Assembly (NCBI GenBank): GCA_964371255.1
Contig: CAYJKV010000001.1
Coordinates: 99,140-163,139 of the forward strand
Direction: 5' to 3'
DNA length: 64,000 nt
Origin: an uncultured Candidatus Saccharibacteria bacterium
GTDB taxonomy: Bacteria; Patescibacteriota; Andersenbacteria; UBA10190
Part shown: in pieces, positions 11,602 to 26,699 of the stretch
Layout: the number at the start of each line of letters is the position of its first letter
Numbering within the stretch: the first letter of the stretch is position 1
The notes under the pieces: model-generated
Seen by the model: only the letters and a program-made list of their open reading frames with translations
Databases searched by the model: none
Told to the model about the DNA's origin: nothing
Made by a program: the position numbers and the translations under genes

Positions 11602-12819
11602 ATGCCAATATACTCCTTCGAAGGGCGACGTGAAAAAACTGGCGAGGTAGTGCGAGGATTGCGGGAAGCACAGTCACATGCTTTATTAGGTCAAGATTTG
11701 TTGACGGAAGGAATCTTGCTGACGCGCTACACACAGAAGCTACAAAGATTGCCGGGAGCGACAATATATTCAATGATATTTAATCGGGTGCCGGTGATTG
11801 AGCGAGTTTTGTTTTCGCGTTATTTTTCGCTGATGTTACGGGCGGGGATGGATGTTAAACGATCGCTGCAGGCATTGCAACAACAGACACGTAGTAAACC
11901 CCTGAAGATGGCGCTGGAGAGCGTTTACCATGATATTGAACGAGGTCGGACTTTGGCGGAGAGTATGCAGGCGTTTCCGGCGGCTTTTCCTCCTTTGTTT
12001 ATCAGTTTTATCGAGGTGGGGGAAACAACCGGAAGGCTGCAGGAATCGTTGGAAGTATTAGCGAGTCAATTGCAAAAAGAATATGAGTTGAAGAGGGCGG
12101 TTAAGGGAGGGTTAATGTATCCGGCCGTAATTATTCTGGCTTTGATTGCTGTTGGTATTGCCATGATGTTTTTCGTCGTGCCAAAACTGGTGGAGGTGTT
12201 TGAAGGTTTTAATGTGGAGTTGCCCTTAGCAACGCGGGTGCTGATATGGTTTAGTGACTTTTTTCAAAATTACTGGATCGGGATATTCATTGTCGCTTTT
12301 ATGCTGATGGGATGCGCCTGGGGTTTAATGCGAGTGAAATCAGTCCACGCGGCGGTTAATGAGGGATTATTATATCTGCCCATTTTCGGCGGAATTATTC
12401 AAAAGGTAAATCTGGGAAGATTTTCACGTAACCTTAGTTCTCTTTTACAAAGCGGAGTGTCTTTTATTCGGGCATTGGAGATATTAGGCCAGAATACGCC
12501 TCATCCAAGTTATGCTCATGTTTTTTCCGCGGCACGCGAGCACGTGAGGCAAGGTAAGGAACTGAGTAGTTTTTTAGCTGATTTTCAGCGCCTGTTTCCA
12601 CCGATAGTCATCAATGTGATCAAGGTGGGTGAGGAAACAGGTGCTTTAGACCAGGTGCTGGCGGAGACAGCTTTGTTTTATGAGAGTGAAGTAGACCAAA
12701 CCATGAAGAACTTAACATCTATTATGGAACCAATATTAATGGTGGGTGTGGGGTTAGCGGTCGGTGCTTTGGCAGTATCGGTAATTTCACCTATTTATGA
12801 CCTGGTCAACGTTGTCTGA
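11602..12819 (+). CDS. pilC: type IV pilus inner-membrane platform protein PilC (GspF family)
   Basis: 405 aa. It has two GspF repeats and three TM segments, and sits directly after pilB. Confidence 0.85.
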   Translation: MPIYSFEGRREKTGEVVRGLREAQSHALLGQDLLTEGILLTRYTQKLQRLPGATIYSMIFNRVPVIERVLFSRYFSLMLRAGMDVKRSLQALQQQTRSKPLKMALESVYHDIERGRTLAESMQAFPAAFPPLFISFIEVGETTGRLQESLEVLASQLQKEYELKRAVKGGLMYPAVIILALIAVGIAMMFFVVPKLVEVFEGFNVELPLATRVLIWFSDFFQNYWIGIFIVAFMLMGCAWGLMRVKSVHAAVNEGLLYLPIFGGIIQKVNLGRFSRNLSSLLQSGVSFIRALEILGQNTPHPSYAHVFSAAREHVRQGKELSSFLADFQRLFPPIVINVIKVGEETGALDQVLAETALFYESEVDQTMKNLTSIMEPILMVGVGLAVGALAVSVISPIYDLVNVV

Positions 12820-12922
12820 TAGGTATAAAGATCTAAGAAACTCTCTTAGGGCGACCAGACAACAATTAGTTGTTAACGAAGCAGAGGTTAGTGCCTGGTA
12901 TACAGGAAGGGAGTCAAGAGCG

Positions 12923-14410
12923 TTGGGGTCAGCTGGTTTTACAATAATCGAAGTATTGATTGCTGTTTTTGTAGTAAGTACTGCGATCGTTGGGGTGTTT
13001 GGTTTGTTTGCGTTGGGACTACGCCTGGCAGGGGAAAGCGAGAATAGACTGATGGCGATTGCCCTGGCGAACGAAAAAATGGAATTGATCCGAAACTTGC
13101 CATATGTCGATGTTGGAACGCAGGGCGGGATACCGGACGGTGCGATATTGCAGGAAGAGTCGGTGGTGAGAAATAGCGTCAGTTTTCTGGTAGAAACTGA
13201 TATTAGATACGTGGATGACCCTTATGATGGTTTGGTGGGCGAAGGAGGGGCGGGGGGATGTGTGGCCATTGCCCATCGACCCCCGGGCAATCCGAACAAT
13301 TGCAGTGACATGTGCGTGCCGGCCTCGGCGGTAAACGCGCATTTATTGCATGGGGATGCGATGGGCAACTGCGACGGTACGTATAATGGACCGGATGTAC
13401 TGAATACCGACTATAAGCAAGTCAGAGTTGAGGTCTCCTGGCCAAGCCCCAATGAGCCACGACCGATTCTATTAATTACAAAAGTAGCACCGAGTGGGGT
13501 GGAGGGCGGAGAACTTTTTGGCACGTTGGACTTTCTAGCTTTGGACAGCCAAGGTTTGGCAGTGCCATCGGCTGATGTCACTTTAGTTAACAATGAGGTT
13601 GAGCCGGTCGTGAACTATGCTACCCAGACTAATAACGAGGGACGGGTAGTGGTGCCTGGGCTACCAGAGAGCGCGCAAAATTACCAATTGACGGTTAGTA
13701 AGCCAAATTATACTACTGAGCAGACTTATGATATTGGGCCGGATTTTGTACCGGATACTGATCATACGCATTTATCCATGTTGATTGGCGAGGTGACACA
13801 AAAAGCCTTTGTGATTGATTTAGCCAGCCGGCTGGAGATTACTTTTGAAGAAGGTGGCGATAGTACGGAGAATTACTGTGAAGGCGTGCCGCCGTTGGAG
13901 TTAGGTAATGTTGAGCATATACTGCGAGGAACTAAGACTATTGGCATTGATGAGGCGGGGGACCCGGTTTATGTGTATGACTATGCCGGTGTGTCGGATG
14001 TTAACGGACAAAGCGTGCATGAGAACCTCGTATGGGATTCATACGAGTTTAATTTAGCGTCGGGATCAGCTTGTGATATTAAAGAGACGAGCTTATTGCG
14101 GCCAGTGACCATAAATCCCGGAGAGGACTTAGCCATGACGGTCAAATTGGTAAAACATACGCCTGTTTCTTTACAAGTAACAGTTGTTGGTACGGCCGGA
14201 CTGCCAGTGGATAACGCCACGGTGCATTTATTGGGCGACGGAGTGGACGAAACCTTAGGCACGGGACCATGGGGCCAAGTTTTAATGGCTGATTTGCCGG
14301 CCAATGGCCAGTTTGATTTAACGGTTTCAGCACCCGGTTATGTGGAATGGCAGGATAGTGTCGACGTGGAAGACACCACGATGGTCAGGGTAGTGATGAG
14401 CAGTCCTTAA
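12923..14410 (+). CDS. pilin-like protein with prepilin N-terminus and large C-terminal domain
   Basis: Class III signal ...LGSAG|FTIIEVLIAVFVV, with E at +5. The track ORF begins at 12797, overlapping pilC, with a 42-aa leader. A TTG at 12923 preceded by an AGGAAGGGAG RBS would give a short leader. About 500 aa. Confidence 0.65.
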   Translation: MGSAGFTIIEVLIAVFVVSTAIVGVFGLFALGLRLAGESENRLMAIALANEKMELIRNLPYVDVGTQGGIPDGAILQEESVVRNSVSFLVETDIRYVDDPYDGLVGEGGAGGCVAIAHRPPGNPNNCSDMCVPASAVNAHLLHGDAMGNCDGTYNGPDVLNTDYKQVRVEVSWPSPNEPRPILLITKVAPSGVEGGELFGTLDFLALDSQGLAVPSADVTLVNNEVEPVVNYATQTNNEGRVVVPGLPESAQNYQLTVSKPNYTTEQTYDIGPDFVPDTDHTHLSMLIGEVTQKAFVIDLASRLEITFEEGGDSTENYCEGVPPLELGNVEHILRGTKTIGIDEAGDPVYVYDYAGVSDVNGQSVHENLVWDSYEFNLASGSACDIKETSLLRPVTINPGEDLAMTVKLVKHTPVSLQVTVVGTAGLPVDNATVHLLGDGVDETLGTGPWGQVLMADLPANGQFDLTVSAPGYVEWQDSVDVEDTTMVRVVMSSP

Positions 14411-14437: not shown

Positions 14438-15085
14438 ATGGAACAAACTAGCAGGCAAAAAAAAAGAAACAAGACGTTGGGCATGACGTTGCTGGAAATT
14501 TTAGTGGTAGTGTCGATCAGTGTCATTGTCTTAATGGCATTGCTGCGTTTTTTAGTAGCCGGCTATCCGTTATCAAAAACTACCGTGTTACAGCAGCGTT
14601 CAACGGAAACAGCCCGGATTCACTTAAAAAGACTGGTGAAGAGTTTGCGCGAAGCACGGCATTCTGATACCGGTGCTTATCCACTGGTCGCAACAGAACC
14701 ACAGAAAATTATTTATTATGCCAATGTTGATGCTGACCCAGCGACGGAACGTGTTCGTCTGGAGTTATCCGGCCATGATCTTATCCGAGGCGTGACTAAG
14801 CCAACGGGTACGCCATTGACATATAATCTGGAGAATGAAGTAGCGGTTGTAATTATCGGCACGGTGGTGAATGAAGCGGAGAAAATTTTCAGCTATTACA
14901 CCGGTGATTACCCGGTTAACACTGAAGAACTGACACCGACCGACCTGACCGAAGTCAAGTATATTGCCATTAATTTGTTAATAGATTCTGACCAGGCGAT
15001 TGATCCTCCGCCTATTCGGGTGAGATCACAAGTCCAATTGCGTAACTTGAAGACCAATTTAGGTCAGGTAGTGGAAGTGCCGTAG
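14438..15085 (+). CDS. pseudopilin / minor pilin (prepilin-type N-terminal domain)
   Basis: KTLG|MTLLEILVVVSI cleavage/methylation motif, with E at +5. 215 aa. Confidence 0.7.
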   Translation: MEQTSRQKKRNKTLGMTLLEILVVVSISVIVLMALLRFLVAGYPLSKTTVLQQRSTETARIHLKRLVKSLREARHSDTGAYPLVATEPQKIIYYANVDADPATERVRLELSGHDLIRGVTKPTGTPLTYNLENEVAVVIIGTVVNEAEKIFSYYTGDYPVNTEELTPTDLTEVKYIAINLLIDSDQAIDPPPIRVRSQVQLRNLKTNLGQVVEVP

Positions 15086-15163: not shown

Positions 15164-17491
15164 GTGATGAGGATAAATAACAGACAAGCCGGGCAGTCGC
15201 TAGTCGAGGTGTTGATAGCGGCATTTATTCTAGGGATTCTGGCTATCGCTTTAGCGGGCGTGTCGACCTTGGGAACAAAAACAGCGGTTGTGAGTGAGGA
15301 ACGAACGGTGGCACAAGCCATAGCTAATAAAAGGGAGGAGTTGATTAAACTAACACCTTATGTGGACGTAGGATACACGGGAGGCAGTGTACCGGATGGT
15401 ATATTTCCGGCGAGTGAAGTGATTGATACTAACAACCAGGTGTATGAAATGAGGATGGATATAACACTAGTGGATGATCCAGAGAACGGTTGTGTGGATG
15501 CCGGTGGCACTTGTGACGGCAGCACATTAGATGAGGAGACGGCTGATTATAAGAGAGTGGTGATAAGTGTCGTGTACCCGTCAGCCAACGATGCGGCGGA
15601 GGAGGTTAAAGTTGTGACATACAGTGTGCCAGGCCAAGCGGAAGCGTTGTTGAATATGGTGGAGTGTGATCCAACTGATATTACCGGGTCATGTGGAGCG
15701 GGACAGATATGTTGCAACGAGAGGTGTCTAGCCAGGTGTGATCCGGGATCTTGCCCGGAAGGATATAGCTGTGCCGAGAATGGCTGCGGGTGCGTTGAGG
15801 CTGATTGCCCTTGGTGCGATCTGGCGACTTGTTTTGATGACTTTGAATGTGTCGCATCGAACCAGCAATGCTTGGCAGGTAATTGCGTAGCGGAGTGTGC
15901 CAGCGACGGTGATTGCGGGGGGGCGACGTGTTTATATGGATGGTGTTTGGAGTCATGTATAAATAACAGTGAATGCAACGGTGATCAGATTTGCCAAGAC
16001 GGGTCGTGTCAGATGCCTGGTTGCGTCACTAACTATGACTGTAGAGTTGGTTACAGCTGTACGGATTTTCAGTGTCACCCGACAACTTGCGTGGATGATG
16101 CCTATTGTCCCGCTAATTTTGAGTGTGTAGAGAACACCTGCATGCCCGCTGTTTGTGCGGATGGAACTTGTCCTGGTAGTTGGGAGTGTGTTTACGGCAA
16201 ATGCCAACCACCAAATTGTTCAGCGGTGCAATCTTGTAATAGCCTAAATTGTCTAGGAGGCGAATGCCAACCACCGGTATGTGAAAATCACGGTCAATGC
16301 GGCGGGCTGGCAGTTTGTTTAGGGGGGACTTGTACTAGCCCACCGGCTTGCGGGGCAGGTTGCCCAGCTTCATTATCTTGTGTGGGCGGCCTGTGTTACA
16401 AAGCGAATATGACAGTGGCGCCACTGCTTTTAACGGAAGAATGCCCAGCACCAATGGCTTTCCCGTGCCTACCGGCCATAGGTGAGGTGACGGTCACGTG
16501 GTTGCCTGTCGAAGGTGAAATATATTGTGAACCGTCAGTAACCACTGGTGCCTGCACAACTGATCCGAACCCAACGGTTGAATGGAGTGATACTGACGGG
16601 GATGGCAAAACCAATTGCGGAGCGTCGGGATTGCTGAATGCTTGTGAGCCTATTAATCCCATCGAATGCGGGTCTAGTTGTCCTGGTTGTCCAAGCTGCG
16701 CGATAGACAATTTATGTATTGAAGGTCGTTGCATGCCAAAACAACCTTGCCCGGTTGGATACGCCAATCATCCCACTGTGGCAGGAGCTTGTGCAGAAGA
16801 AGTGTCTGTCTCACCACCCGTGACCTGTCCGCCAGGAATATGCGCTGGTTCATATTGTAGCGCGAGCGGGGAGTGTGTGACGGCTGGCTGCGTGACAGAC
16901 GAACAGTGCGGGGCACATGGCAAGTATTTATGTCGTAATAATATATGTATACCATCACTGGCCAGGGATTGTGAGTATTGTACGCCACCGGAAAGAATCT
17001 CTTATTGCCATACACTAGACTGTCCGACTTGCGGTGGTGGCCCAGGATCGGCTTGCACAGATCCGTTAGGCGCTGCGAGTACTGTAGTGTGGTCACAGGA
17101 CCGAACAACAGGTTGTAGTCATTTGATTTGTGCTTACGCCCCAAGTCTTTGCGGCGACGGAATAACGCAGCCAGGGGAGGAATGTGATGGGGGGGATGAT
17201 GTAAATTGTCCCGGGCTATGCAGCGCTTGCCAGTGTCCGGCAGCGGTGTGCGGTAACGGACAGTTGGAGATAGGTGAGACGTGTGACCCTCCTGAGGGTA
17301 CTTCATGTTCACCGGCGGAATGTGGGACGGGCGGTGCGCCACCGTGCTTATGTCAAACTCAAGCACCGCCGCCGTTATGCGGGAACGGATTAATAGATAC
17401 GCTGTCCGGGGAGGGGTGTGATTGGTCAGTGTCGCCAGACTCATGTGTGGGAGGATATTGCAGCGATGTTTGTGTATGTGAGTACCCGTGA
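15164..17491 (+). CDS. giant pilin-like protein with cysteine-rich tandem repeats
   Basis: Prepilin motif NRQAG|QSLVEVLIAAF. The remaining ~700 aa carry more than 100 Cys in tandem ~20-aa units with C-x5-C-x4-C-x4-C spacing. Three C-terminal CG(D/N)G..E.CD units resemble the myxobacterial cysteine-rich repeat. Confidence 0.7.
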   Translation: MMRINNRQAGQSLVEVLIAAFILGILAIALAGVSTLGTKTAVVSEERTVAQAIANKREELIKLTPYVDVGYTGGSVPDGIFPASEVIDTNNQVYEMRMDITLVDDPENGCVDAGGTCDGSTLDEETADYKRVVISVVYPSANDAAEEVKVVTYSVPGQAEALLNMVECDPTDITGSCGAGQICCNERCLARCDPGSCPEGYSCAENGCGCVEADCPWCDLATCFDDFECVASNQQCLAGNCVAECASDGDCGGATCLYGWCLESCINNSECNGDQICQDGSCQMPGCVTNYDCRVGYSCTDFQCHPTTCVDDAYCPANFECVENTCMPAVCADGTCPGSWECVYGKCQPPNCSAVQSCNSLNCLGGECQPPVCENHGQCGGLAVCLGGTCTSPPACGAGCPASLSCVGGLCYKANMTVAPLLLTEECPAPMAFPCLPAIGEVTVTWLPVEGEIYCEPSVTTGACTTDPNPTVEWSDTDGDGKTNCGASGLLNACEPINPIECGSSCPGCPSCAIDNLCIEGRCMPKQPCPVGYANHPTVAGACAEEVSVSPPVTCPPGICAGSYCSASGECVTAGCVTDEQCGAHGKYLCRNNICIPSLARDCEYCTPPERISYCHTLDCPTCGGGPGSACTDPLGAASTVVWSQDRTTGCSHLICAYAPSLCGDGITQPGEECDGGDDVNCPGLCSACQCPAAVCGNGQLEIGETCDPPEGTSCSPAECGTGGAPPCLCQTQAPPPLCGNGLIDTLSGEGCDWSVSPDSCVGGYCSDVCVCEYP

Positions 17492-17512: not shown

Positions 17513-17971
17513 ATGAATGATATTGGATATAATCAGGTGGGCGGTGTGATGCTATTAGTTTTAATGTTAATGATAGTTTTTATTGTGATCGCGAGCGCTA
17601 CTTTGCGTTACGTTATTCGACAATCGCACGAGACTATTGATCAAGAGCAGGAAGAGCAAGCATTTAACGCGGCGGATAGCGGTGTGGCTTACGTTTATTG
17701 GTTGTTAGATCCGGCTGGAGGGCAAAAAGTTCCGGCCGATATCGCAGAAACGACCCGGGCTGTATATGACGACTCGGATGCAGAAATTGGTACTTTTACA
17801 ATTAATGACATAATCACTAACACTGACGAAATCGAGTTTACTTCTACCGGGCGAGACACAGAACTGACCGAGCGCTGCCAAGTAATAAAGGTACGTCTAC
17901 GCCAACCGGTAGATAATGAGAGGTATATCTTAACAGATTGGGATCATTTAGTGGGTTACCCTTGTTCATAA
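17513..17971 (+). CDS. PilX-like minor pilin / pilus assembly protein
   Basis: N-terminal hydrophobic helix QVGGVMLLVLMLMIVF without the conserved E+5, followed by an AADSGVAY segment as in PilX-type proteins. 152 aa. Confidence 0.45.
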   Translation: MNDIGYNQVGGVMLLVLMLMIVFIVIASATLRYVIRQSHETIDQEQEEQAFNAADSGVAYVYWLLDPAGGQKVPADIAETTRAVYDDSDAEIGTFTINDIITNTDEIEFTSTGRDTELTERCQVIKVRLRQPVDNERYILTDWDHLVGYPCS

Positions 17972-17996
17972 TTAAGTTGATCGACTGATTGAGGTT

Positions 17997-19640
17997 ATGA
18001 GAAAAATGAACGGATGGAAAGTCTGGCAGGTATTAAAGTGGCGAGCGCAAGGCCGGGAAGAAGGGTTATCATTAGTGGAGTTATTAGTATTTATTGGCGT
18101 AGGATCTGTCCTGATAGTAACGCTAGGGTTAATCGTGTCGGGAACTTCACGCATCTCACGTCAGCAGATAGAGCAAGGCGCGATTACGGAAAAGGCTAGG
18201 GTGCAATTGGAAAGGATGAGTGATGAAATCCGGAATGCCCAGTATATAGACTGCAACTTGGACGCAGACACGGCGGACGCGGATGAACATTGGCTGTATG
18301 GCGCTAATGATTTTGAAATTATTGTCTTAAGCAATGTGGATGATGATGTGGAAGCCGAACGGGTGAGATATTTTGTACAAGTCGGCACAACAGGTGAGAC
18401 CAAGAAGTTAAAGCGCGGGGTGACGCAGCCCGGTGCATCATTGTGTGATTTTTCAACCAATCCAGAAAACGTTACTACGGTACTGACTGGTTTGGAAAAT
18501 GCGACACCTGATCCGGCAGTCCCTGTTTTCCAGTATTTTACCAGTGGTAATGAGGCGGCGCGTTTGACCACGCCGGTGATTCGTTTGTCTAGTGTGTTGC
18601 GGGTGAGACTGGAGCTGAAGATTGATGAGGACATTAACATTGAGCCGACGATAGTTGATATCGTGACTGATGTGGTACCCCGCGGAGTGGAGGATCCAGG
18701 AATATGTGTAGCGGCGGGGCTGAATTTGCAGCGCTATTCTGATGGGGATCCTTTCGCAGACCAGGCGTATAATTCGTGTCAATCATATTGTTTGGGCAGC
18801 GCCAGTTTGCCGGCCGGGCAATGTTGTCCTTGGTCAGTAGCGTTTTATTGGGATTCGAGCAGCCATATGGTCTGGTCAACATGTGAATGCGCGGATACGT
18901 ATTTGCCTCCGGATATGATTCCTGACAGTGTTAGTCCCGGCAGTTACACTAATTTTGTGCGCTCGTGTTTAAACGGAACGCAGTGCGCAGGACAGAGAGG
19001 TGAAGCCGTATGCGAGCCGAATTGTTTAGACGCGCCTGGACAGTGTGTATGTGTTTGTCCGGGTGGTTTGCCGTCTACGACAGCATGTGATGATGGGGTG
19101 GATAATGATGGTGATGGGACGGCGGACTGTGCGACGTGTGATGGGGTGCTAGGACTGTTTTATGATCCGGGTTGTTCTGGCAGCGCCGACAGTTCAGAGT
19201 GGGGCACGGCTGAGTGCGATGATGGCCAAGCAAATGATTGTGACGGACTCCAAGACTATAGGGTAAATGGAACAGGGGATCCGGACTGTACTGGTCCCAC
19301 AGATAATGATGAAGGTGATTGCTTGGGATGTACCCCGGCACAAGTAATAGGAGTATCACAGTGCAGTGATAGTATAGACAATGATTGTGCGGGAGATGGG
19401 GTGGGTTACGCAGTTATTCCGTCTGATCCACAGTGTCAAAATGCGGCAGATAATAACGAATGGTCGGTGTTAAAACAATGCCACGACGGCTTTGATAACG
19501 ATGGGGATGGAGGCATTGACAGTAATGGTTTCCCGCCGGATTCGGACTGTCCTGGTCCCAGCGAGGATAACGAATGGGGAGAGCCAAGTATTGCCCCAAC
19601 GCCGACGGCAGTAATTACAGAATCACCACCCGTCTTCTAG
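17997..19640 (+). CDS. pilin-like protein with C-terminal Cys/Asp-rich Ca-binding-type repeats
   Basis: Prepilin motif GREEG|LSLVELLVFIGV. The C-terminal 200 aa contain four or more CxDGxDNDxDG...D(P/S)DC units, reminiscent of thrombospondin type-3 / DxDxDG Ca-binding repeats. Confidence 0.65.
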   Translation: MRKMNGWKVWQVLKWRAQGREEGLSLVELLVFIGVGSVLIVTLGLIVSGTSRISRQQIEQGAITEKARVQLERMSDEIRNAQYIDCNLDADTADADEHWLYGANDFEIIVLSNVDDDVEAERVRYFVQVGTTGETKKLKRGVTQPGASLCDFSTNPENVTTVLTGLENATPDPAVPVFQYFTSGNEAARLTTPVIRLSSVLRVRLELKIDEDINIEPTIVDIVTDVVPRGVEDPGICVAAGLNLQRYSDGDPFADQAYNSCQSYCLGSASLPAGQCCPWSVAFYWDSSSHMVWSTCECADTYLPPDMIPDSVSPGSYTNFVRSCLNGTQCAGQRGEAVCEPNCLDAPGQCVCVCPGGLPSTTACDDGVDNDGDGTADCATCDGVLGLFYDPGCSGSADSSEWGTAECDDGQANDCDGLQDYRVNGTGDPDCTGPTDNDEGDCLGCTPAQVIGVSQCSDSIDNDCAGDGVGYAVIPSDPQCQNAADNNEWSVLKQCHDGFDNDGDGGIDSNGFPPDSDCPGPSEDNEWGEPSIAPTPTAVITESPPVF

Positions 19641-19702: not shown

Positions 19703-21235
19703 ATGAAGGCATGGGCTAAATGTTATAAATGGCGAACCTGGTCAAGTAAAACCTGGTTGATAATAGTGTTATTGACAGCCAGTGTGGCGACCCATTTCTT
19801 GTGGTTTGGTTATCCGGGGCAAGTGGTGTTTGACGAAGTGCACTTTGGTAAGTTTGTGACAGCGTATTGCTGCACACACCAGCGTTTTTTTGATATTCAT
19901 CCGCCCCACGCTAAATTATTAATTGCCGGTACGGCTTACTTGTTTGGTTATCGAGGGGGAGTTAATTTTGACCATATCGGACAGGATTATGGCGATGTAG
20001 CCGCTTGGCCGCTGCGTGTCTTTCCGGCCTTGACTGGTGTGTTATTGCCGTTAGTCATTTATGCCCTGCTGCGACAATTAAAAGCTAAGCCAGCGGCAGC
20101 ATTCTGGGGCGGGATGCTGGTGGTGTTGGATAATGCCCTCACTGTACAGACGAGGATTATTGCTTTGGACGGTTTATTGCTAGTGGCCACATTTGGTGCC
20201 CTGGCAGCGTATTTAGCGGCCAGAAACCAAAAGCAGCCAAGCAGTGGGCTAATTTCGTCGAGTGTTGGAGTGAACACCTGGTGGAATTCATTGACGGGCA
20301 GGACACAGATGAAGAGAGAAGGATGGATGTTTTTGCTAGCAGGCTCATTAGTCGGTTTGGCCGTCGGGACAAAATTTACAGGGCTAACGGCTGGTGGGTT
20401 GATCGTAATATTACTAGTTGTTTGGCTGATCAGAATAAGAACCTACACTGAGATCAGAAGATGGATAACAGCCACCGCTTTGATCGTATTGGGAGCAGTA
20501 GTCGTGTATGGCTTGGGGTGGATGATACATTTTATGGTTTTAACCGAACCGGGTGATGGGGATTTGTGGCGGAAACCACAGTGGGAACAACCAATCATGG
20601 CTAGTTTTTGGCGCGAAACAAAAATGATCCATAAAATAATGTATGATGCCAACAGTGGATTGAAAGCGGAGCACCATGACGCGAGCCGCTGGTGGTCCTG
20701 GCCGCTGGTTCGAACACCAGTTTTTTATTGGCAATTTAGTGAAGGGGGAGAGGCAAACAGATCCGGATCAATTTATTTTTTACCTAATCCGTTTTTATGG
20801 TGGGGGACGTCTGCCTTGTTTGTGGTGGTGATATTAGCGATAGTGATTACGGGAGTGAATAATATTACAAGGTGGGCGAAGCGAAGGAAAGAACTTGGCC
20901 AAATGCGACAGCAATGGCAGCAGTCATTCTTGAAGCAGGCGTGGTTGCCGTTAATGGGATACGCGGCATCGTATATACCATTGATGAAAGTAACCAGGGT
21001 CTTATTTCTTTATCATTACCTGACACCCTGGCTGTTTTCCCTGATCGTGACTGTTTTGTGGCTCGAGAGAGTTGGCTGGATTACACCAAAGGAGGCAATA
21101 GATCAACCAAAGAGGTATTGGTTGGTGCTGGGCATAATACTATGCGCATTTATTTTTTTCAGCCCCTTGACGTACGGTTTTTTACTGGGAGAAGGGGTAC
21201 GGGAAGGACTGTTTTGGTTTAAAACGTGGATGTAA
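19703..21235 (+). CDS. GT39-family protein O-mannosyltransferase-like membrane glycosyltransferase
   Basis: 510 aa and polytopic. The loop-1 motif VVFDEVHFGKF is the hallmark DE-containing motif of PMT/GT39 enzymes. Confidence 0.6.
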   Translation: MKAWAKCYKWRTWSSKTWLIIVLLTASVATHFLWFGYPGQVVFDEVHFGKFVTAYCCTHQRFFDIHPPHAKLLIAGTAYLFGYRGGVNFDHIGQDYGDVAAWPLRVFPALTGVLLPLVIYALLRQLKAKPAAAFWGGMLVVLDNALTVQTRIIALDGLLLVATFGALAAYLAARNQKQPSSGLISSSVGVNTWWNSLTGRTQMKREGWMFLLAGSLVGLAVGTKFTGLTAGGLIVILLVVWLIRIRTYTEIRRWITATALIVLGAVVVYGLGWMIHFMVLTEPGDGDLWRKPQWEQPIMASFWRETKMIHKIMYDANSGLKAEHHDASRWWSWPLVRTPVFYWQFSEGGEANRSGSIYFLPNPFLWWGTSALFVVVILAIVITGVNNITRWAKRRKELGQMRQQWQQSFLKQAWLPLMGYAASYIPLMKVTRVLFLYHYLTPWLFSLIVTVLWLERVGWITPKEAIDQPKRYWLVLGIILCAFIFFSPLTYGFLLGEGVREGLFWFKTWM

Positions 21236-21499: not shown

Positions 21500-22888
21500 A
21501 TGCATGACGGGAGGATAGCCGAGACGAAAAAATCGGGCGGTGTGCTGGTGATGACTTTGGTGTTTGTGACCATGTTTTTAGTAATTTTTATTGGCATTTC
21601 TGGCATGGTGAGCCGGACTTATCATGAAACGGTTCTGCAGGCGCATGACGAGTTGGCTTTCCAGGTAGCAGAGGCCGGTTTGAACTATGCCAGGTGGAGG
21701 TTGGCCCATAATGGGGATGATTTGTCGGCGGCTGAAGGGGTGCTGACAGATCAATTGGCGGGTGATTTGGGGGAGTATGAATTAACGTTTGAACAACCGG
21801 TACCCGGTAGTTCAATTGTCAGAATTACATCGGTGGGAACAACATTAACTCAACCGATGCGACAAGTGAATTTGACGGTGTTGTATGGGAGGCCGTCGTT
21901 GGCCAGGTATGCGTCAATTACGAATAATGATGTGTGGTATGGAGGGACGATTTATGGATCGGTGCATGCGAATGGTGGAATTCGTATGGATGGGCAAGCG
22001 GATAGTTTAATGACTTCCGCTAAGGAAACATATGCTTGCCAACCATATCATGGATGTTCGTCACCTTATCAAACAAAACCGGGAATCTGGGGAACGGGGG
22101 AGATACAAGAATTATGGGAGTGGCCGGTGACCAGCGTGGACTACACCTCAATAACCTTAGATCTATTGGACATGAGGGACGCGGCGGATGAGACGGATAC
22201 ACATTATGGGCCATCAGGCGGTTTCGGATATCAGATAGAATTTGCCGGTGATAATACTTATTCCATTTATAAAGTGACAAGTCGTGGACCGTCTATCTGG
22301 TCATGGACTAGTGACACAGACTGGCAATATACGTCGCATGACGTGGGTAACAAGACTCTGATTGAAACTAAGACAGTGCCGGCGGGCGGGGTTATTTTCT
22401 TAGAGGATAGGACTTGGGTAAAAGGAGATATACGTGATCGAATTACGGTTGCGGCAGGCGTTTATCCAGCTAATCCCTCGACTAATGTTGATATCATACT
22501 GAATGGAAATATCAGTTACGGCAACGTGCATGACGGGACGCGGGTTTTTGCCGCAGTGGCACAAAGACATATTCTGATTCCCTGGTCGGGCGCACCGGAT
22601 AACATGCTTCTGGACGGTGCGTATGTAGCACAAAACGGATCGTTTCACCGACGTTATTATCCCAATTGCTGTGGCGCGTCGGCACATCGTCTGAAAACCA
22701 GTTTGACTAGGTATGGAATGGTAGCCAGTAACGGAGTGCCAGCCACGGCCTGGCTAGATGGTGGAACGGTAGTGAGTGGTTTTAGGTCCGGGCAAGCATC
22801 ATATGATGCCAACTTGCTTTATGGTCCGCCACCTTATTTTCCTGCGAATAGCCAATATGAGCTAATTTCCTGGGAGGAAGATCAATGA
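21500..22888 (+). CDS. PilX N-terminal-like large pilus-associated protein
   Basis: TM helix VLVMTLVFVTMFLVIFIGISGMV, then HDELAFQVAEAGLNYARWRL, typical of the PilX_N region. 462 aa, secreted/extracellular-looking. Confidence 0.5.
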   Translation: MHDGRIAETKKSGGVLVMTLVFVTMFLVIFIGISGMVSRTYHETVLQAHDELAFQVAEAGLNYARWRLAHNGDDLSAAEGVLTDQLAGDLGEYELTFEQPVPGSSIVRITSVGTTLTQPMRQVNLTVLYGRPSLARYASITNNDVWYGGTIYGSVHANGGIRMDGQADSLMTSAKETYACQPYHGCSSPYQTKPGIWGTGEIQELWEWPVTSVDYTSITLDLLDMRDAADETDTHYGPSGGFGYQIEFAGDNTYSIYKVTSRGPSIWSWTSDTDWQYTSHDVGNKTLIETKTVPAGGVIFLEDRTWVKGDIRDRITVAAGVYPANPSTNVDIILNGNISYGNVHDGTRVFAAVAQRHILIPWSGAPDNMLLDGAYVAQNGSFHRRYYPNCCGASAHRLKTSLTRYGMVASNGVPATAWLDGGTVVSGFRSGQASYDANLLYGPPPYFPANSQYELISWEEDQ

Positions 22889-23070: not shown

Positions 23071-24099
23071 ATGATAGGGATTGATATATCAGATCGTTCA
23101 ATTAAGATGGTACAGAAATCGAATGTGGGTGGAGACCCCGTGCAGTCTTTTTGTTGGCATGTGATCGAGGAAGGAGTAATTGAGCGGGGCATAATTATGG
23201 AACCCAAAAAACTAAGTCAGGCCTTAGTGCAGACGTTTAAACGGTGTCATTTAGCGGTGGATACAGATGATGCGGTGGTGGCATCGATTCCGGAAACACA
23301 GTCCTTCCTGCGGGTGATTGAGATGCCTGATATGACAGACGAAGAGACGGATGAAGGAGTACGATGGGAAGTAGCCCAACATATCCCATTTGGATTGGAA
23401 AATGTTTACATCGACTGGCAACCGATACCGTGTGGTCATCAGTCGGCTAAAGGAATTCGTGAAGTATTGGTTGGAGCGGCCCAGAAAAAAGTGGTTGATC
23501 CACTGTTGGTCGTATTGAAGGAGTTGGATTTAGATGTGGCGGCCTTGGAACTGGAAAGCCAGGCCATTGTGCGGGCGTTAATTTCACCGGAGCTGCAGAC
23601 CAAGCAAGGTATTCTTGTGGTAGATTTAGGCGGCAGTGCAACAAACGTTATTATCCATGACCATGGCGCTATGAGGTTTACGGCTAGTTTGCAGCACGGA
23701 GTCAGAAGGATAGCGGAAGCATTGCCAGCTAAGGACAAGGAGGGTCTGATAGTGCCCACCAATGAGGATTTTGAGCCAGAATTAGCTCGTCGTGTAGCGG
23801 AGGCCATGCGACCGGCACAAGAAGAGTTAGTGATGGAAATTAAGGGGATTGTTGAATTTTATAATGGTATTGATGCAAAACATGAGGTGACCGAAATCCT
23901 GCTGACAGGCGGTGGTTCCAATTATCCAGGACTAGACCGAGTCGTTGCTAAGTATTTTGATGATGTTCATGTGCAGCGGGGGAATCCGTGGGCCAATATT
24001 TTACCTCACAGCCAAATGAGCAAGGTGCCAATGTCACTGAAGGAGTCGGTGCATTTTTCCACCGCGATCGGTTTAGCGTTAAGAAAAATTGAAGCATGA
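23071..24099 (+). CDS. pilM: type IV pilus assembly protein PilM (copy 1)
   Basis: MIGIDISDRSIKMVQ N-terminus, actin-like ATPase fold motifs, and a DLGGSATNV phosphate loop. 342 aa. Confidence 0.8.
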   Translation: MIGIDISDRSIKMVQKSNVGGDPVQSFCWHVIEEGVIERGIIMEPKKLSQALVQTFKRCHLAVDTDDAVVASIPETQSFLRVIEMPDMTDEETDEGVRWEVAQHIPFGLENVYIDWQPIPCGHQSAKGIREVLVGAAQKKVVDPLLVVLKELDLDVAALELESQAIVRALISPELQTKQGILVVDLGGSATNVIIHDHGAMRFTASLQHGVRRIAEALPAKDKEGLIVPTNEDFEPELARRVAEAMRPAQEELVMEIKGIVEFYNGIDAKHEVTEILLTGGGSNYPGLDRVVAKYFDDVHVQRGNPWANILPHSQMSKVPMSLKESVHFSTAIGLALRKIEA

Positions 24100-24629
24100 A
24101 GGACGATATAAATCTCTTACCTAAGCCATTGGTAATAGGTCGAGAAAGACGGGCGTATTTGTTTGGTTTTGGCCGCTTACTGCAGCGGATTGCTTTGCTA
24201 TTAGTTGCTATAATTGTCGGGGAAGTAGTCGTGTATGGCGCTCACTATTATATAGATCAGACTATGGATCAGAGTGGGAAGGCCGATGAGCAAAGCCTGA
24301 GTACGACAGAACAAGCACAAAATGTGAATATGTTGCTGTCTTTGGTAGATAACACGCGCAAGCAATTTGTCAGCTGGTCTTTATTCAGTGAGGAAGTGCT
24401 TAATAGTGCGCCAAGAGAAATTACTATTAGCAAGTTGGAAGTGAAGGAGAAGCTAGGAGCATTAGAGGTGGTGGGTTATTCCAGTCGAAGAGCGTCGGTA
24501 TTGGAATACAAAAATATTTTAGCAGGGTTGAGTTGGGTGAAACGGGTGGATGCACCGCTACAAAACTATGCGATAGGGCCAGACGCCGGTTTTTCTTTCA
24601 GCCTAATTGTTGATAAGGGAGTACAATGA
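24096..24629 (+). CDS. pilN: PilN-like protein (copy 1)
   Basis: INLLP motif near the N-terminus and a single TM. Translationally coupled to pilM. Confidence 0.65.
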   Translation: MKDDINLLPKPLVIGRERRAYLFGFGRLLQRIALLLVAIIVGEVVVYGAHYYIDQTMDQSGKADEQSLSTTEQAQNVNMLLSLVDNTRKQFVSWSLFSEEVLNSAPREITISKLEVKEKLGALEVVGYSSRRASVLEYKNILAGLSWVKRVDAPLQNYAIGPDAGFSFSLIVDKGVQ

Positions 24630-25270
24630 AATCTTTACGCTTGAAAAAATTAATAATTACGAGGTTAATAGGATTGATTGTTGTCGTGTCGTTGGTAGGT
24701 TTAGTAATTGTCGCTGGACGCTTCGTGCAAGGGATAAGAATTCAACTAGCGGAAAGACAGTTAGTCTTGGAGGAGAGTTTAAATAATGCAGTGCATCGGG
24801 CAGCGGTAGCAGATAAACTGGTCCAATACGAACCAGAGATAAAGAGGGTGACTGATACTGTTCCGTGGCGTGATGGGATAGGGCAAGTGATTGAGATGGT
24901 GGAGTTGGAAGCAAAAAAGTGGGGAGTGGCTGTACTGGTACCGAAAATTAACGAGGAACCAAAATTTGATGAGAGTGGTGTCCCTGTTCCACAAACCGGG
25001 CCGACAAGGTTGATCCGCTTAAAAGTAGAGGCAACGGGTAACCCCTTGGCACTAATGAATTTTTTGCATAGTTTGGAAAATTTGCCCTATTTAATCAATC
25101 CCCTGTCATTTGTTTTAGATAATGAAGATGAGAGTGTAAACACAGTTGGTCCAGCAGCTTTGGCACCGGCTTTGTCGGGTTCCAAGGAAGAAAGAGAACA
25201 AAAAACAGTGCAGCAGTCTTCCTTAAAAGCGGATTTTCTTCTCACCGTGCGGGTAGAAGAACTTAAATAA
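24626..25270 (+). CDS. pilO: PilO-like protein (copy 1)
   Basis: Single N-terminal TM plus coiled coil. Position after pilN, with a 4-nt overlap. Confidence 0.5.
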   Translation: MKSLRLKKLIITRLIGLIVVVSLVGLVIVAGRFVQGIRIQLAERQLVLEESLNNAVHRAAVADKLVQYEPEIKRVTDTVPWRDGIGQVIEMVELEAKKWGVAVLVPKINEEPKFDESGVPVPQTGPTRLIRLKVEATGNPLALMNFLHSLENLPYLINPLSFVLDNEDESVNTVGPAALAPALSGSKEEREQKTVQQSSLKADFLLTVRVEELK

Positions 25271-25631: not shown

Positions 25632-26684
25632 ATGATCGGGATAGATTTATCAGATCGTTCAATAAAAATTGTTGAAACCAGAGGGGACGAGAACCCTGTG
25701 CTACGGACTTTGTGTTGGTCACCTTTGGCACCAAATCTGCTAAGACGAGGTGTGGTGCAGGATGTGGCATTGGTCTCAGAGGCCTTGAAAGTAGCGATGA
25801 CGAAATGTTCACCCATTCCCGTCGAAGGCGGTGACGTAGTGGCTTCGATACCGGAGGTGCAATCTTTTGTCCGTGTCTTGGAAGTGCCAGCGATGTCCGA
25901 GAGGGAAATGGATGAAGCGGTACAATGGGCAGTGCGGCGACACATTCCGTTTGATTTGGACCGGGTTTATATTGATTGGGAGGAACTGGACCTGGCGTCT
26001 GATATGCCGCAGCACAAACAAGTGTTAGTCGGGGCGGCCCAACGCGATGTGGTGGATCCGCTGCTGACAGTTTTGGATAGTTTGGGTTTTAACGTGGTGG
26101 CTTTAGAACTTGAGGCACAAGCCGTGATGCGGTGTCTATTGCCACGAGATATTACCGAGACAAGGGATATTCGAGGTGTTCTAGTGGTTGATTTGGGGGC
26201 CACGTCGACGAATGTTATTTTATTTGATCAGGGAGCAATGCGTTTCACAGCTAGTGTGCAAGTGGGTGGCGATGATTTGACACAGCAATTAGCGCACGCG
26301 CTAAATTTAAAGCCGGCCCAGGCGATGGAAATCAAAGCAAAAGTTGGCGCTGGCTTCATTAAGGATGAACCGGCAGCAGCGCAAGCTTTACAGAGCGCAA
26401 CCTTGAATTTAGCCCGCATGGTAGAAAGAGCCGTACAGGAGATGACAGTACAGTTGCCGCGTGAACAGAGAATGAGAACAATATTGCTGACAGGCGGGAA
26501 TGCAAATTTGGTTGGTATTCGGGAGCTGTTTGGCAGTGTTTTCACTGGTATTCCTGTGCAATATGGCAATCCTTGGACGAATTTGCAACAAGAAAAGAGG
26601 CGAATTGGTCTTAATCTGACGGTCGGAGATGCCATGCATTTTACGACTGCGATCGGGTTGGCACTACGCGAGGTTGATTATTAA
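25632..26684 (+). CDS. pilM: type IV pilus assembly protein PilM (copy 2)
   Basis: MIGIDLSDRSIKIVE. Paralogous to copy 1, sharing VVASIPE.QSF.RV.E.P and DLG..STNVI. 350 aa. Confidence 0.8.
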   Translation: MIGIDLSDRSIKIVETRGDENPVLRTLCWSPLAPNLLRRGVVQDVALVSEALKVAMTKCSPIPVEGGDVVASIPEVQSFVRVLEVPAMSEREMDEAVQWAVRRHIPFDLDRVYIDWEELDLASDMPQHKQVLVGAAQRDVVDPLLTVLDSLGFNVVALELEAQAVMRCLLPRDITETRDIRGVLVVDLGATSTNVILFDQGAMRFTASVQVGGDDLTQQLAHALNLKPAQAMEIKAKVGAGFIKDEPAAAQALQSATLNLARMVERAVQEMTVQLPREQRMRTILLTGGNANLVGIRELFGSVFTGIPVQYGNPWTNLQQEKRRIGLNLTVGDAMHFTTAIGLALREVDY

Positions 26685-26699
26685 TATAACCAGCAAAAC

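What the first reader, a model, noticed from the sequence alone, without database searches (positions are those of the whole stretch)
17997..19640. Second pilin-like protein with thrombospondin-type Asp-rich Ca-binding/Cys repeats
A prepilin motif (G|LSLVELLVFIGV) is followed by a ~500-aa domain. It ends in four or more CxDGxDNDxDG...DPDC units (CDDGVDNDGDGTADC, CDDGQANDCDGLQD...DPDC, CSDSIDNDCAGDG, CHDGFDNDGDGGID...DSDC). These resemble calcium-binding TSP-3/DxDxDG repeats. Together with the 15164 gene, this gives two different adhesin-like pilins in one locus.
Basis: partly seen in the sequence, partly recalled or inferred. Interest (0 to 1): 0.75.

Follow-up and report, generated by a model that had tools for sequence, protein, structure and literature searches.

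The report
Modular GspJ-type pilin with calcium-type repeats
The gene encodes a minor subunit of a type IV pilus in an ultrasmall groundwater bacterium (Candidatus Andersenbacteria lineage). [quoted passage not shown] It is a real and tidy example of an already known design, the modular pilin.

Summary
One ORF (17997-19640, +, 547 aa) joins a class III (prepilin) signal, G23|L24-S-L-V-E28, to a long extracellular part that ends in exactly four CxDGxDNDxDG...DPxC units.

The protein has three modules:
- Residues 233-358 are an orphan domain with 14 cysteines, found only in this small family.
- Residues 364-526 are four acidic repeats.

The repeats are not low complexity. A profile built from unrelated non-pilin proteins scores them 80.7 bits, against a maximum of 6.9 for 1000 shuffles.

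The repeats are not Pfam TSP type 3 repeats (no hit). They belong to NCBIfam NF033662, the "acidic double-disulfide repeat". The target scores below the cutoff and an ortholog scores above it. About 8,000 representative proteins carry this repeat.

The conserved positions of the repeat coincide with the Ca2+ ligands of the teneurin-4 C-rich domain. In that domain, two Ca2+ sites are coordinated as in TSP type 3 repeats.

The gene lies in a conserved pilB-pilC-minor pilin-pilMNO operon. It most likely sits at the pilus tip. Calcium binding and adhesion are inferred, not shown. Verdict: a new member of the known class of modular pilins.

The parts
17997..19640 (+). Complete gene for a 547-aa modular minor pilin
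   Evidence: ORF. An identical protein and 50-67% identical orthologs were found. Synteny is conserved.
17997..18065 (+). Basic leader peptide, aa 1-23, ending in Gly23 (predicted prepilin peptidase cleavage site G23|L24)
   Evidence: Sequence. Leaders of 11-23 aa are conserved in the full-length orthologs. Cleavage is inferred from the class III signal consensus.
18066..18692 (+). GspJ/PilW-class pilin module, aa 24-232. It comprises alpha1 (helix 26-79) plus beta-sheets, the invariant Cys86 and Cys150, and the motif NVDDDVEAERVRY.
18693..19070 (+). Orphan cysteine-rich domain, aa 233-358, with 14 Cys
   Evidence: Conserved in P0002-P0008 and in P0025. There were no Pfam hits and no further homologs. 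AF2 pLDDT is mostly 71-92 by 10-residue block, with a mixed alpha/beta prediction.
19086..19199 (+). Acidic repeat unit 1, aa 364-401 (CDDGVDNDGDGTADCATCDGVLGLFYDPGCSGSADSSE), 4 Cys
   Evidence: 29.2 bits to the independent unit profile. This is the best stretch of the NF033662 hit and aligns to the teneurin-4 C-rich domain.
19215..19313 (+). Acidic repeat unit 2, aa 407-439 (CDDGQANDCDGLQDYRVNGTGDPDCTGPTDNDE). Position 6 is Ala instead of Asp.
   Evidence: 23.2 bits. Alignment A2.
19362..19460 (+). Acidic repeat unit 3, aa 456-488 (CSDSIDNDCAGDGVGYAVIPSDPQCQNAADNNE). It is degenerate: positions 10 and 14 are not Asp.
   Evidence: 16.9 bits. Alignment A2.
19479..19574 (+). Acidic repeat unit 4, aa 495-526 (CHDGFDNDGDGGIDSNGFPPDSDCPGPSEDNE). 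All consensus acidic positions are present.
   Evidence: 21.2 bits. It has the highest pLDDT among the repeats, 70-83.
19575..19637 (+). Pro/Thr-rich C-terminal tail, aa 527-547 (WGEPSIAPTPTAVITESPPVF)
   Evidence: Sequence. pLDDT is below 50. The tail varies among orthologs.
9732..11465 (+). PilB-type assembly ATPase (context)
   Evidence: TIGR02538, E 5e-166.
11602..12819 (+). PilC/GspF platform protein (context)
   Evidence: PF00482, E 1.5e-57.
12797..14410 (+). PilV/GspI-like prepilin with C-terminal CarboxypepD_reg domains (context)
14438..15085 (+). Stand-alone GspJ/PilW-like minor pilin, paralog of the target's pilin module
   Evidence: BLASTP 29% identity over 174 aa, E 1e-13. N_methyl and PpdB hits.
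15164..17491 (+).
   Evidence: N_methyl 27.6 bits. PilV TIGR02523. No similarity to the target beyond alpha1.
17513..17971 (+). Small ComGG/GspK-like (PilX-type) minor pilin
   Evidence: Weak NCBIfam hits NF041014 and NF037980.
19703..21235 (+). GT39 protein O-mannosyltransferase homolog inside the operon
   Evidence: PF02366 and PF16192, E about 8e-34. Syntenic in L001-L003.
21500..22888 (+). 462-aa protein with an N-terminal hydrophobic helix and no family hit. It resembles PilX/GspK by position and N-terminus only.
   Evidence: Syntenic.
23071..25270 (+). PilM, followed by PilN-like and PilO-like genes (first set)
   Evidence: TIGR01175, 135 bits.
25632..27937 (+). Second PilM-PilN-(PilO-like) set
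   Evidence: PF11104 and PF05137.

Best explanation
The gene encodes a modular minor pilin of a type IV pilus in a Patescibacteria (CPR) bacterium close to Candidatus Andersenbacteria.

Inferred steps from established pilin biology:
- A prepilin peptidase cleaves after Gly23.
- The hydrophobic alpha1 helix, with Glu at +5, inserts the subunit into the filament core.
- Because the pilin module has the GspJ/PilW fold, it most likely assembles with the neighbouring GspI/PilV-like and GspK/PilX-like minor pilins. This complex primes assembly on PilB/PilC/PilMNO and ends up at the pilus tip.

The C-terminal 315 residues then project from the tip. They comprise an orphan 14-Cys domain followed by four units of about 35-45 residues. 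In each unit, a Cys...Cys disulfide closes a DxDNDxDGxxD...DPxC loop. By homology with the teneurin C-rich domain, such a loop chelates about two Ca2+ ions.

The Ca2+-loaded, disulfide-clamped units would form a stiff, protease-resistant, strongly acidic extension. This extension would present a binding surface, and in some orthologs extra binding modules, to the host cell or substrate.

Shown here: the ORF, the motif, the fold class, the repeat family, the alignment with teneurin ligand positions, and the operon and its conservation. Inferred: cleavage, tip location, disulfides, Ca2+ binding and adhesion.
For: Pilin identity:
- The class III signal motif with invariant Glu28 is present.
- AF2 predicts a 54-residue alpha1 helix followed by beta-sheets at pLDDT above 90.
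- A profile search finds stand-alone pilins of about 200 aa that carry PF07963. Some are named PilW, and they hit the HpsC, GspJ, ComGF and PpdB models.
- The module is a paralog of the adjacent 215-aa pilin.

Context:
- The gene sits in a pilB-pilC-(five pilin-like genes)-PMT-pilMNO-pilMNO operon.
- The order is the same in four other contigs.

Repeats:
- An independent profile scores 80.7 bits against a shuffle maximum of 6.9.
- NF033662 scores 28.9 bits in the target and 71.8 bits with 6 stretches in ortholog P0005, where the cutoff is 41.
- 8068 representative proteins carry the unit. Those sampled also carry surface or adhesin domains: DUF11, PKD, He_PIG, Cohesin and CarboxypepD_reg.

Calcium:
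- In 26 family units, C1, D3, D6, N7, D8, D14, D21 and C24 are conserved in 24-26 of 26, and D10 in 20 of 26.
- These columns align with teneurin-4 C838, D840, D843, N844, D845, D851, D854, C857 and D847.
- In the 1.5 A teneurin-4 structure these residues are the Ca2+ ligands and the C838-C857 disulfide. Ca sites I and II are coordinated as in TSP type 3 repeats (PMC9058538).
- Teneurin, diatom and Volvox core motifs score 15-27 bits against the unit profiles. That is 5-9 SD above their own shuffles.

Modularity:
- Ortholog P0007 has an LVIVD region inserted inside one unit's loop. P0008 and P0009 replace the distal modules. P0025 stops after the Cys-rich domain.

Precedent:
- Modular pilins are widespread and are thought to be tip-exposed (PMC8179133).
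- In Saccharibacteria, the minor pilin PilX2, which carries an accessory domain, is needed for host binding (PMC11623550).
Against: - The target itself misses the curated thresholds. PF07963 N_methyl scores 13.2 bits against a cutoff of 21.2. NF033662 scores 28.9 bits against a cutoff of 41.
- Units 2 and 3 lack one or two of the putative ligands.
- The repeat region is modelled at only pLDDT 50-83. No structural match was obtained for it or for the Cys-rich domain.
- No prepilin peptidase or major pilin gene was found among the window ORFs examined.
- None of the 148 best repeat-bearing proteins is a pilin, so the repeat has no intrinsic link to pili.
- Ca2+ binding, disulfide pairing, tip location and adhesion were not and could not be tested here.
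Confidence: 0.55

Rival explanations
1. The architecture is the same, but the acidic repeats are only a Ca2+-stiffened spacer. Ligand recognition would lie in the orphan Cys-rich domain (aa 233-358) or in a partner protein. The repeats would be a generic 'stalk' cassette, as in giant surface proteins.
For: In non-pilin proteins the units form arrays of up to 43 copies alongside Ig-like and adhesin domains. Unit number varies from 4 to 6 among orthologs, and extra modules are inserted into or appended to the array. The Cys-rich domain is specific to the family and highly conserved.
Against: In the target the repeats, not the Cys-rich domain, are the most distal module. A spacer with nothing beyond it except a 21-aa tail is odd. 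No data discriminate between the two roles.
Confidence: 0.3
2. The protein is not incorporated into an extended pilus. It would use its class III signal and alpha1 helix as a membrane anchor or as part of a short pseudopilus, as in T2SS-like systems or the archaeal bindosome. The C-terminal modules would then be displayed at the cell surface.
For: The best structural matches are T2SS pseudopilins (GspJ, XcpW, EpsJ). The leader is long at 23 aa. No major pilin gene was seen in the window.
Against: The operon has PilB with an MshEN domain, PilC and two PilM-N-O sets. These are typical of type IV pili in monoderm-like CPR bacteria. GspJ-like folds are also the PilW class of genuine T4P, for example Thermus TTHA1219. 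CPR cells make T4P that include minor pilins with accessory domains.
Confidence: 0.12
3. The repeats bind a metal other than calcium, for example copper as proposed for the MopE motif, and serve in metal capture rather than structure or adhesion.
For: The core CxDGxDNxCDG motif was noted to resemble Pfam PF11617 Cu-binding_MopE (PMC3278476). A weak PF11617 hit (E 0.55) occurs in one repeat protein.
Against: The target has no PF11617 hit even at E<=10. All conserved ligand positions are carboxylate or amide oxygens (Asp, Asn), which favour Ca2+. The only solved homologous motif binds three Ca2+ ions. The units have no conserved His or Met, and no conserved Cys beyond the two that are presumed to pair in a disulfide.
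Confidence: 0.05
4. The 'repeats' are compositionally biased low-complexity sequence with no conserved fold.
For: The region is 17.5% Asp and 13.8% Gly. Pfam finds nothing.
Against: The profile score is 80.7 bits against a maximum of 6.9 in 1000 shuffles. C1, D21, C24 and E32 are invariant across 26 units. A curated NCBIfam model exists, and 8068 proteins were matched.
Confidence: 0.01

Closest known systems
Modular type IV pilins (S. sanguinis PilB/PilC, ETEC CofB, Thermus ComZ; Raynaud et al. 2021, PMC8179133)
   Different: The grafted modules here are an orphan 14-Cys domain plus NF033662-type acidic repeats. Neither has a Pfam signature, so surveys based on Pfam signatures would probably miss this architecture (inference). 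The carrier is a GspJ/PilW-class module.
GspJ / XcpW / EpsJ and PilW-class minor pilins (3nje, 2ret, 3ci0, 5g23)
   Different: Sequence identity is only 9-15%. The target itself does not reach any GspJ or PilW HMM threshold. It carries a family-specific Cys86/Cys150 pair and a 315-residue C-terminal extension that classical GspJ lacks.
NCBIfam NF033662, acidic double-disulfide repeat
   Same: The unit is the same: CxDGxDNDxDGxxD...DPxC....D..E. Ortholog P0005 and all non-pilin relatives score 70-208 bits.
   Different: The target scores 28.9 bits, below the cutoff of 41, and has only four units. Their loops are lengthened and two units are degenerate. I found no paper on this repeat family in one motif search of the held library.
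Teneurin C-rich domain (human teneurin-4, PDB 7plp; Meijer et al. 2022, PMC9058538)
   Same: The core CxDxxDNDxDGxxDCxDPDC aligns column for column. The Ca2+ ligands D840, D843, N844, D845, D847, D851 and D854 and the C838-C857 disulfide correspond to the most conserved positions of the repeat.
   Different: Teneurin has a single copy with six Cys and a conotoxin-like C-terminal part that builds a third Ca site. The pilin has tandem copies with 2-4 Cys and variable loops of 5-11 residues before DPxC. Similarity is at the motif level (15-17 bits), so common ancestry is plausible but not proven.
Thrombospondin type 3 repeats (Pfam PF02412; TSP-1 structure 1UX6)
   Same: Both are Asp-rich DxDxDG-type loops stapled by disulfides that wrap Ca2+ without regular secondary structure. 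Teneurin Ca sites I and II, which share the motif, superpose on TSP type 3 sites. AF2 predicts almost no helix or strand in aa 359-547.
   Different: There is no PF02412 hit at E<=10. Spacing, Cys pattern and the trailing D..E[W/F] segment all differ.
Saccharibacteria minor pilins with accessory domains (PilX1, PilX2; PMC11623550)
   Same: These are CPR type IV pili whose large minor pilins carry C-terminal domains, and PilX2 is required for host binding. That organism has two T4P systems, encoded in several loci. The present locus has two sets of minor pilins and of PilMNO.
   Different: The carrier class differs (PilX-like there, GspJ-like here). The modules differ (beta-jelly roll and beta-propeller there, Cys-rich domain plus acidic repeats here). 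The phylum differs, and there is no experimental data for Andersenbacteria.

Membership tests
Type IV pilin / class III signal peptide protein | Gly at -1, hydrophobic residue at +1, Glu at +5, then about 20 hydrophobic residues forming alpha1-N | tested here: met
   The motif EEG|LSLVELLVFIGVGSVLIVTLGLIV is present. Glu28 is invariant in 28 sequences. AF2 predicts helix 26-79.
Type IV pilin / class III signal peptide protein | Match to Pfam PF07963 (N_methyl) or TIGR02532 above the curated cutoff | tested here: not met
   PF07963 gives E 0.068 and 13.2 bits against a cutoff of 21.2. TIGR02532 is not listed for the target. Many relatives of the N-domain do carry PF07963.
Type IV pilin / class III signal peptide protein | Cleavage and N-methylation by a prepilin peptidase, and incorporation into a filament | not testable with these tools
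   No PilD gene was found among the window ORFs scanned. This needs biochemistry.
GspJ / PilW-class minor pilin | GspJ-type globular fold after alpha1 | tested here: met
GspJ / PilW-class minor pilin | Sequence-profile membership (TIGR01711 gspJ, NF007848 PpdB, NF038304 HpsC) | tested here: inconclusive
   The target has only NF007848 at E 0.003-0.008, far below the cutoff. Of 28 aligned relatives, 7 hit gspJ, 16 hit HpsC and 8 hit PpdB.
GspJ / PilW-class minor pilin | Forms a tip or priming complex with GspI/PilV-like and GspK/PilX-like partners | not testable with these tools
   The partner genes are adjacent (15164-17491 and 17513-17971). No multimer prediction or experiment was available.
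NCBIfam NF033662 acidic double-disulfide repeat | Whole-protein score at or above 41 bits | tested here: not met
   The target scores 28.9 bits (E 7e-7, 2 stretches). Ortholog P0005 scores 71.8 bits, and non-pilin relatives score 70-208 bits.
NCBIfam NF033662 acidic double-disulfide repeat | Tandem units with the CxDGxDNDxDG...DPxC...D..E pattern, beyond compositional bias | tested here: met
   Four full-length units total 80.7 bits against a shuffle maximum of 6.9, using a profile built from NF033662-positive proteins.
Thrombospondin type 3 repeat (PF02412) | Match to the TSP_3 profile | tested here: not met
   There is no hit for the whole protein at E<=0.1 or for the isolated C-terminal region at E<=10.
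Thrombospondin type 3 repeat (PF02412) | Ca2+ coordinated by a DxDxDGxxD loop stapled by a disulfide | not testable with these tools
   This is inferred only through the teneurin-4 structure, whose Ca sites I and II match TSP type 3, and its alignment to the units.
Teneurin C-rich domain | Acidic and Asn Ca2+ ligands and the first-to-third Cys disulfide at the conserved spacing C-x-D-x-x-D-N-D-x-D-G-x-x-D...D-P-x-C | tested here: met
   Family conservation is 24-26 of 26 at C1, D3, D6, N7, D8, D14, D21 and C24. The HMM alignment to 7plp places these on C838, D840, D843, N844, D845, D851, D854 and C857. Target unit 4 has all of them; units 1-3 lack one or two.
Teneurin C-rich domain | Six cysteines in the pattern 1-3, 2-5, 4-6, with the ExxC...CCxxxxCxxxxxC consensus | tested here: not met
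   The units have 2-4 Cys and no CC...C...C tail.
EF-hand | Helix-loop-helix around the DxDxDG loop | tested here: not met
   Only loop-level matches to calmodulin were found (E 0.1-10). AF2 predicts no flanking helices in aa 359-547. Pfam EF-hand hits are insignificant.
MopE-type putative metal-binding motif (PF11617) | Match to the PF11617 profile | tested here: not met
   The target has no hit at E<=10. Repeat protein P0021 has E 0.55.

The most novel reading that the evidence does not exclude
The acidic, disulfide-clamped repeats would themselves be a Ca2+-dependent host-recognition device at the tip of the CPR pilus, for instance bridging through Ca2+ to anionic envelope polymers of the host cell. 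Module swapping among orthologs would then reflect diversification of host range. That swapping includes an LVIVD propeller inserted inside a repeat loop, Glug or DUF1566-type tails, and versions that stop after the Cys-rich domain. A corollary concerns the teneurin C-rich domain. It would derive from this very abundant prokaryotic repeat rather than from an algal gene, which fits the bacterial origin of the rest of the teneurin ectodomain.
Probability: 0.2. Interest if true: 0.6.

Novelty: new member of a known kind. Interest (0 to 1): 0.35.

Why it matters
CPR/Patescibacteria live attached to other cells, and type IV pili are their best-supported attachment organelles. Outside Saccharibacteria the tip components are uncharacterised. 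This protein gives a concrete candidate tip subunit for Andersenbacteria that can be expressed. Its carrier fold is confidently assigned, and its effector part has a testable metal-binding hypothesis taken from a 1.5 A structure. The alignment also suggests a structural and functional model, Ca2+-stapled loops, for a curated but unstudied bacterial repeat present in about 8,000 protein clusters. It links that repeat to the teneurin C-rich domain. None of this overturns current views. It extends the catalogue of modular pilins with modules that domain databases mostly miss.

Tried and rejected
- Pfam scans of the whole protein and of its three parts gave nothing: no TSP_3, MopE, dockerin or EF-hand hit.
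- A sequence search of the PDB with the protein and with profiles gave only weak hits. These were teneurin at E 0.2-0.45, EF-hand loops, and geopilin N-termini.
- The first AF2 run, with a 9-sequence alignment, was unusable at pLDDT 39. A composite 43-sequence alignment fixed this.
- The afdb50 library was unavailable.
- A profile search with the Cys-rich domain found no further homologs.
- I looked for diversity-generating-retroelement-style template/variable DNA repeats involving the gene and found none.
- Promoter and terminator scans were at chance level and did not delimit the operon.
- A regex search for prepilin motifs among the 148 best repeat proteins found none. The complete hit list could not be inspected.
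Full report
**Observation**

The window contains an ORF at 17997-19640 on the + strand, 547 aa, exactly as reported. Its N-terminus is MRKMNGWKVWQVLKWRAQGREEG|LSLVELLVFIGVGSVLIVTLGLIV. This is a basic leader ending in Gly, then Leu+1 and Glu+5, then about 22 hydrophobic residues. The prepilin motif and the repeats are in the same frame. A GAGG sequence precedes the ATG, and the upstream gene ends 25 nt earlier.

The C-terminal third contains exactly four units: CDDGVDNDGDGTADC...DPGC, CDDGQANDCDGLQD...DPDC, CSDSIDNDCAGDG...DPQC and CHDGFDNDGDGGID...DSDC. The protein has 30 cysteines.

I tested for compositional bias with a profile built from 41 units taken from seven unrelated, non-pilin proteins. 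It aligns full-length to all four units (aa 364-401, 407-439, 456-488, 495-526). It scores the C-terminal region 80.7 bits. One thousand shuffles of the same residues give -18.3 +/- 8.5, with a maximum of 6.9.

**Origin and conservation**

- An identical protein and seven full-length relatives (37-67% identity) exist in metagenomes. The closest named one is from Candidatus Andersenbacteria, a member of the CPR/Patescibacteria.
- Among 185,579 species-representative genomes, only one Andersenbacteria genome encodes a full-length relative. The other twelve loci match only the N-terminal 200 residues at 24-33% identity. Most of these are Patescibacteria, chiefly Saccharibacteria, with Woesebacteria and Nealsonbacteria.
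- Gene order is conserved in five other loci on four distinct contigs: ABC transporter genes, pilB, pilC, a ~530-aa pilin, a ~215-aa pilin, a ~780-aa pilin, a ~155-aa protein, this gene, a GT39 mannosyltransferase, a 462-aa protein, pilM-N-O, and a second pilM-N-O. The same genes are identified in the window.

**Module 1: the pilin (aa 24-232)**

- Pfam N_methyl is sub-threshold for the target at 13.2 bits.
- A profile of the family's N-domain retrieves 38 further proteins. Most are stand-alone pilins of 180-280 aa with PF07963, and some are named PilW or PulG by their sources.
- These align end to end, from the GFTLVELLV motif to the C-terminal RNLKxNL motif. The target continues past this point where the others stop.
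- The relatives hit the HpsC, Verru_Chthon cassette C, ComGF/GE, GspJ and PpdB models.
- The neighbouring 215-aa pilin (14438-15085) is a paralog: 29% identity over 174 residues, E 1e-13.
- The first AlphaFold2 model, from 9 sequences, was useless at pLDDT 39. With a 43-sequence composite alignment the model reached a mean pLDDT of 76.9, and above 90 in this module.
- Foldseek against the PDB found nothing with the multi-domain query.

The carrier is therefore a GspJ/PilW-class minor pilin. This class belongs to the minor-pilin complex that primes assembly and caps the filament (established knowledge from the GspI-J-K structure 3ci0 and from T4aP work).

**Module 2: the Cys-rich domain (aa 233-358)**

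**Module 3: the acidic repeats (aa 364-526)**

- Alignment of 26 units from the family gives the consensus CxDGxDNDxDGxIDxxxGxxDPxCxxxxDxxE. C1, D21, C24 and E32 are invariant. D3, D6, N7, D8 and D14 are conserved in at least 24 of 26 units, and D10 in 20 of 26.
- Pfam does not recognise the units. There is no TSP_3, MopE, dockerin or EF-hand hit.
- NCBIfam does, as NF033662, the "acidic double-disulfide repeat". The target scores 28.9 bits, below the cutoff of 41. Ortholog P0005 scores 71.8 bits with six stretches. The non-pilin proteins that matched the target's C-terminus score 70-208 bits.
- An exhaustive HMMER scan of 1.84 billion representative proteins with the unit profile found 8,068 proteins at E<=1e-3 and 3,205 at E<=1e-10. 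Some have up to 43 units, and some are giants of up to 6,093 aa.
- Seven hits with much non-repeat sequence were scanned against Pfam. Six combine the units with DUF11, CARDB, PKD, He_PIG, Cohesin, CarboxypepD_reg, SdrD_B or Big domains, which is the repertoire of cell-surface proteins; the seventh had no Pfam hit.
- Several of these proteins start with Sec or lipoprotein-type signals.
- None of the 148 best hits has a prepilin motif. Fusion to a pilin is therefore unusual for this repeat, at least among the repeat-richest proteins.

**Is it calcium-binding, and is it "thrombospondin-type"?**

The only solved structure with sequence similarity is the 49-residue C-rich domain of human teneurin-4 (7plp; E 0.2-0.45 in database searches). 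In a direct comparison, teneurin cores from six animals and a choanoflagellate, plus the related diatom and Volvox motifs (sequences), score 15-27 bits against both the pilin-family profile and the independent bacterial profile. That is 5-9 SD above their own shuffles.

The alignment places teneurin C838, D840, D843, N844, D845, D847, D851, D854 and C857 on repeat positions C1, D3, D6, N7, D8, D10, D14, D21 and C24. These are precisely the conserved columns. In the 1.5 A crystal structure those residues coordinate three Ca2+ ions, and C838-C857 is a disulfide. The authors state that Ca sites I and II are coordinated as in thrombospondin type 3 repeats (PMC9058538). Tucker et al. had earlier noted the resemblance of the same core to the Pfam MopE motif (PMC3278476).

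Family membership in TSP_3, EF-hand (no flanking helices) or MopE is not met.

In the target, unit 4 carries every putative ligand. Unit 1 lacks only the variable last position. Unit 2 has Ala at position 6. Unit 3 has lost positions 10 and 14. Binding of Ca2+ is an inference; nothing here measures it.

**Modularity among orthologs**

- Unit number varies from 4 to 6.
- In the 909-aa ortholog P0007, an LVIVD-repeat region (PF08309) of about 330 residues is inserted inside the variable loop of one unit.
- P0008 and P0009 replace the distal part with other modules (PF07581, PF07603).
- P0025 lacks the repeats altogether.

This is the behaviour described for modular pilins. More than 1,200 are known, with 264 architectures. 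They include CPR examples and a Falkowbacteria pilin with 12 LVIVD motifs (PMC8179133). In Saccharibacteria, the minor pilins with accessory domains are candidate tip proteins, and PilX2 is needed for host binding (PMC11623550).

**Mechanism proposed**

1. A prepilin peptidase cleaves at G23|L24.
2. Alpha1 inserts the subunit into the filament.
3. The GspJ-like module assembles with the adjacent PilV/GspI-like pilin (15164 or 12797) and PilX/GspK-like pilin (17513) into the priming complex on PilB/PilC/PilMNO.
4. The complex ends up at the pilus tip.
5. The Cys-rich domain and the Ca2+-loaded, disulfide-stapled acidic units project outward as a stiff extension. This extension either binds the target surface itself or serves as a scaffold or spacer for binding modules.

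My confidence differs by step:
- It is a type IV pilin-class protein: above 0.9.
- The carrier is GspJ-class: about 0.85.
- The repeats bind Ca2+: about 0.7.
- It is located at the pilus tip: about 0.6.
- It has a direct adhesin role: about 0.4.

Rivals are a pure spacer role, a membrane-anchored or pseudopilus role, binding of another metal, and low complexity (refuted).

**Caveats**

- No prepilin peptidase or major pilin gene was found among the ORFs examined in the window.
- The repeat region is modelled at only moderate confidence.
- The 15164 protein's Cys-rich region is unrelated to this one.
- No DNA repeats suggest a diversity-generating retroelement acting on the gene.
- Promoter and terminator scans were uninformative.

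**Verdict**

[quoted passage not shown] The new elements are this particular combination (a GspJ-class carrier, an orphan 14-Cys domain and NF033662 repeats) and the explicit alignment of that bacterial repeat with the Ca2+-binding teneurin C-rich domain. Interest is moderate.

Noticed in passing
window 34649-35042 (+); repeats at 34977-35160, 36106-36289, 37698-37881: Rfam finds a tmRNA gene (120 bits, E 2e-47) that ARAGORN missed. A 184-nt segment starting in its 3' end is repeated twice downstream at 82-90% identity. This is the region where GC skew collapses (36-38 kb). The pattern fits one or two small elements integrated at the tmRNA 3' end, but this was not examined further.
   Followed up: partly
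window 19703-21235 (+): A GT39 protein O-mannosyltransferase homolog (PMT plus PMT_4TMC, E about 8e-34) lies inside the minor-pilin operon directly after the target. It is syntenic in related contigs. The target ends in a Pro/Thr-rich tail (aa 527-547). Pilin O-glycosylation by this enzyme is a possibility that was not tested.
   Followed up: no
window 12797-27937 (+): The locus has duplicated components. There are two PilV-like pilins (12797, 15164) and two GspJ/PilW-like pilins (14438, 17997). There are two proteins with PilX/GspK-like N-termini (17513, 21500) and two PilM-PilN-PilO sets (23071-25270, 25632-27937). There is only one PilB and one PilC. This is reminiscent of the two T4P systems of Saccharibacteria.
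   Followed up: partly
ortholog P0007 (909 aa), residues ~526-870; compare window 19086-19574: An LVIVD-repeat (PF08309) region of about 330 residues is inserted inside the variable loop of one acidic repeat unit (CSDDIDNDGDGGG ... GEPADPDC). The loop between the DxDxDG part and the closing DPxC can therefore host a whole domain.
   Followed up: partly
window 18246-18374 (aa 84-126 of the target): There are two further Asp-rich motifs inside the pilin module. One is a family-specific insertion, D85-C86-N87-L-D89-A-D-T92...E97-H-W99. It contains Cys86, which is invariant like Cys150. The other is NVDDDVEAERVRY. It corresponds to the FYSDxDxDGxxERVRY motif of stand-alone CPR GspJ-like pilins and could be another metal site.
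   Followed up: no
window 1-64000: GC skew is very strong and uniform, (G-C)/(G+C) about 0.2-0.27 in most 2-kb windows. Most long ORFs lie on the + strand. The exception is the 32-38 kb region, where skew falls to 0.13 or below.
   Followed up: no
window 21500-22888 (+): This is a conserved 462-aa protein with an N-terminal hydrophobic helix. It has no Pfam or NCBIfam hit. It sits between the mannosyltransferase and pilM and is syntenic in relatives. It may be a large PilX/PilY1-like accessory protein.
   Followed up: no
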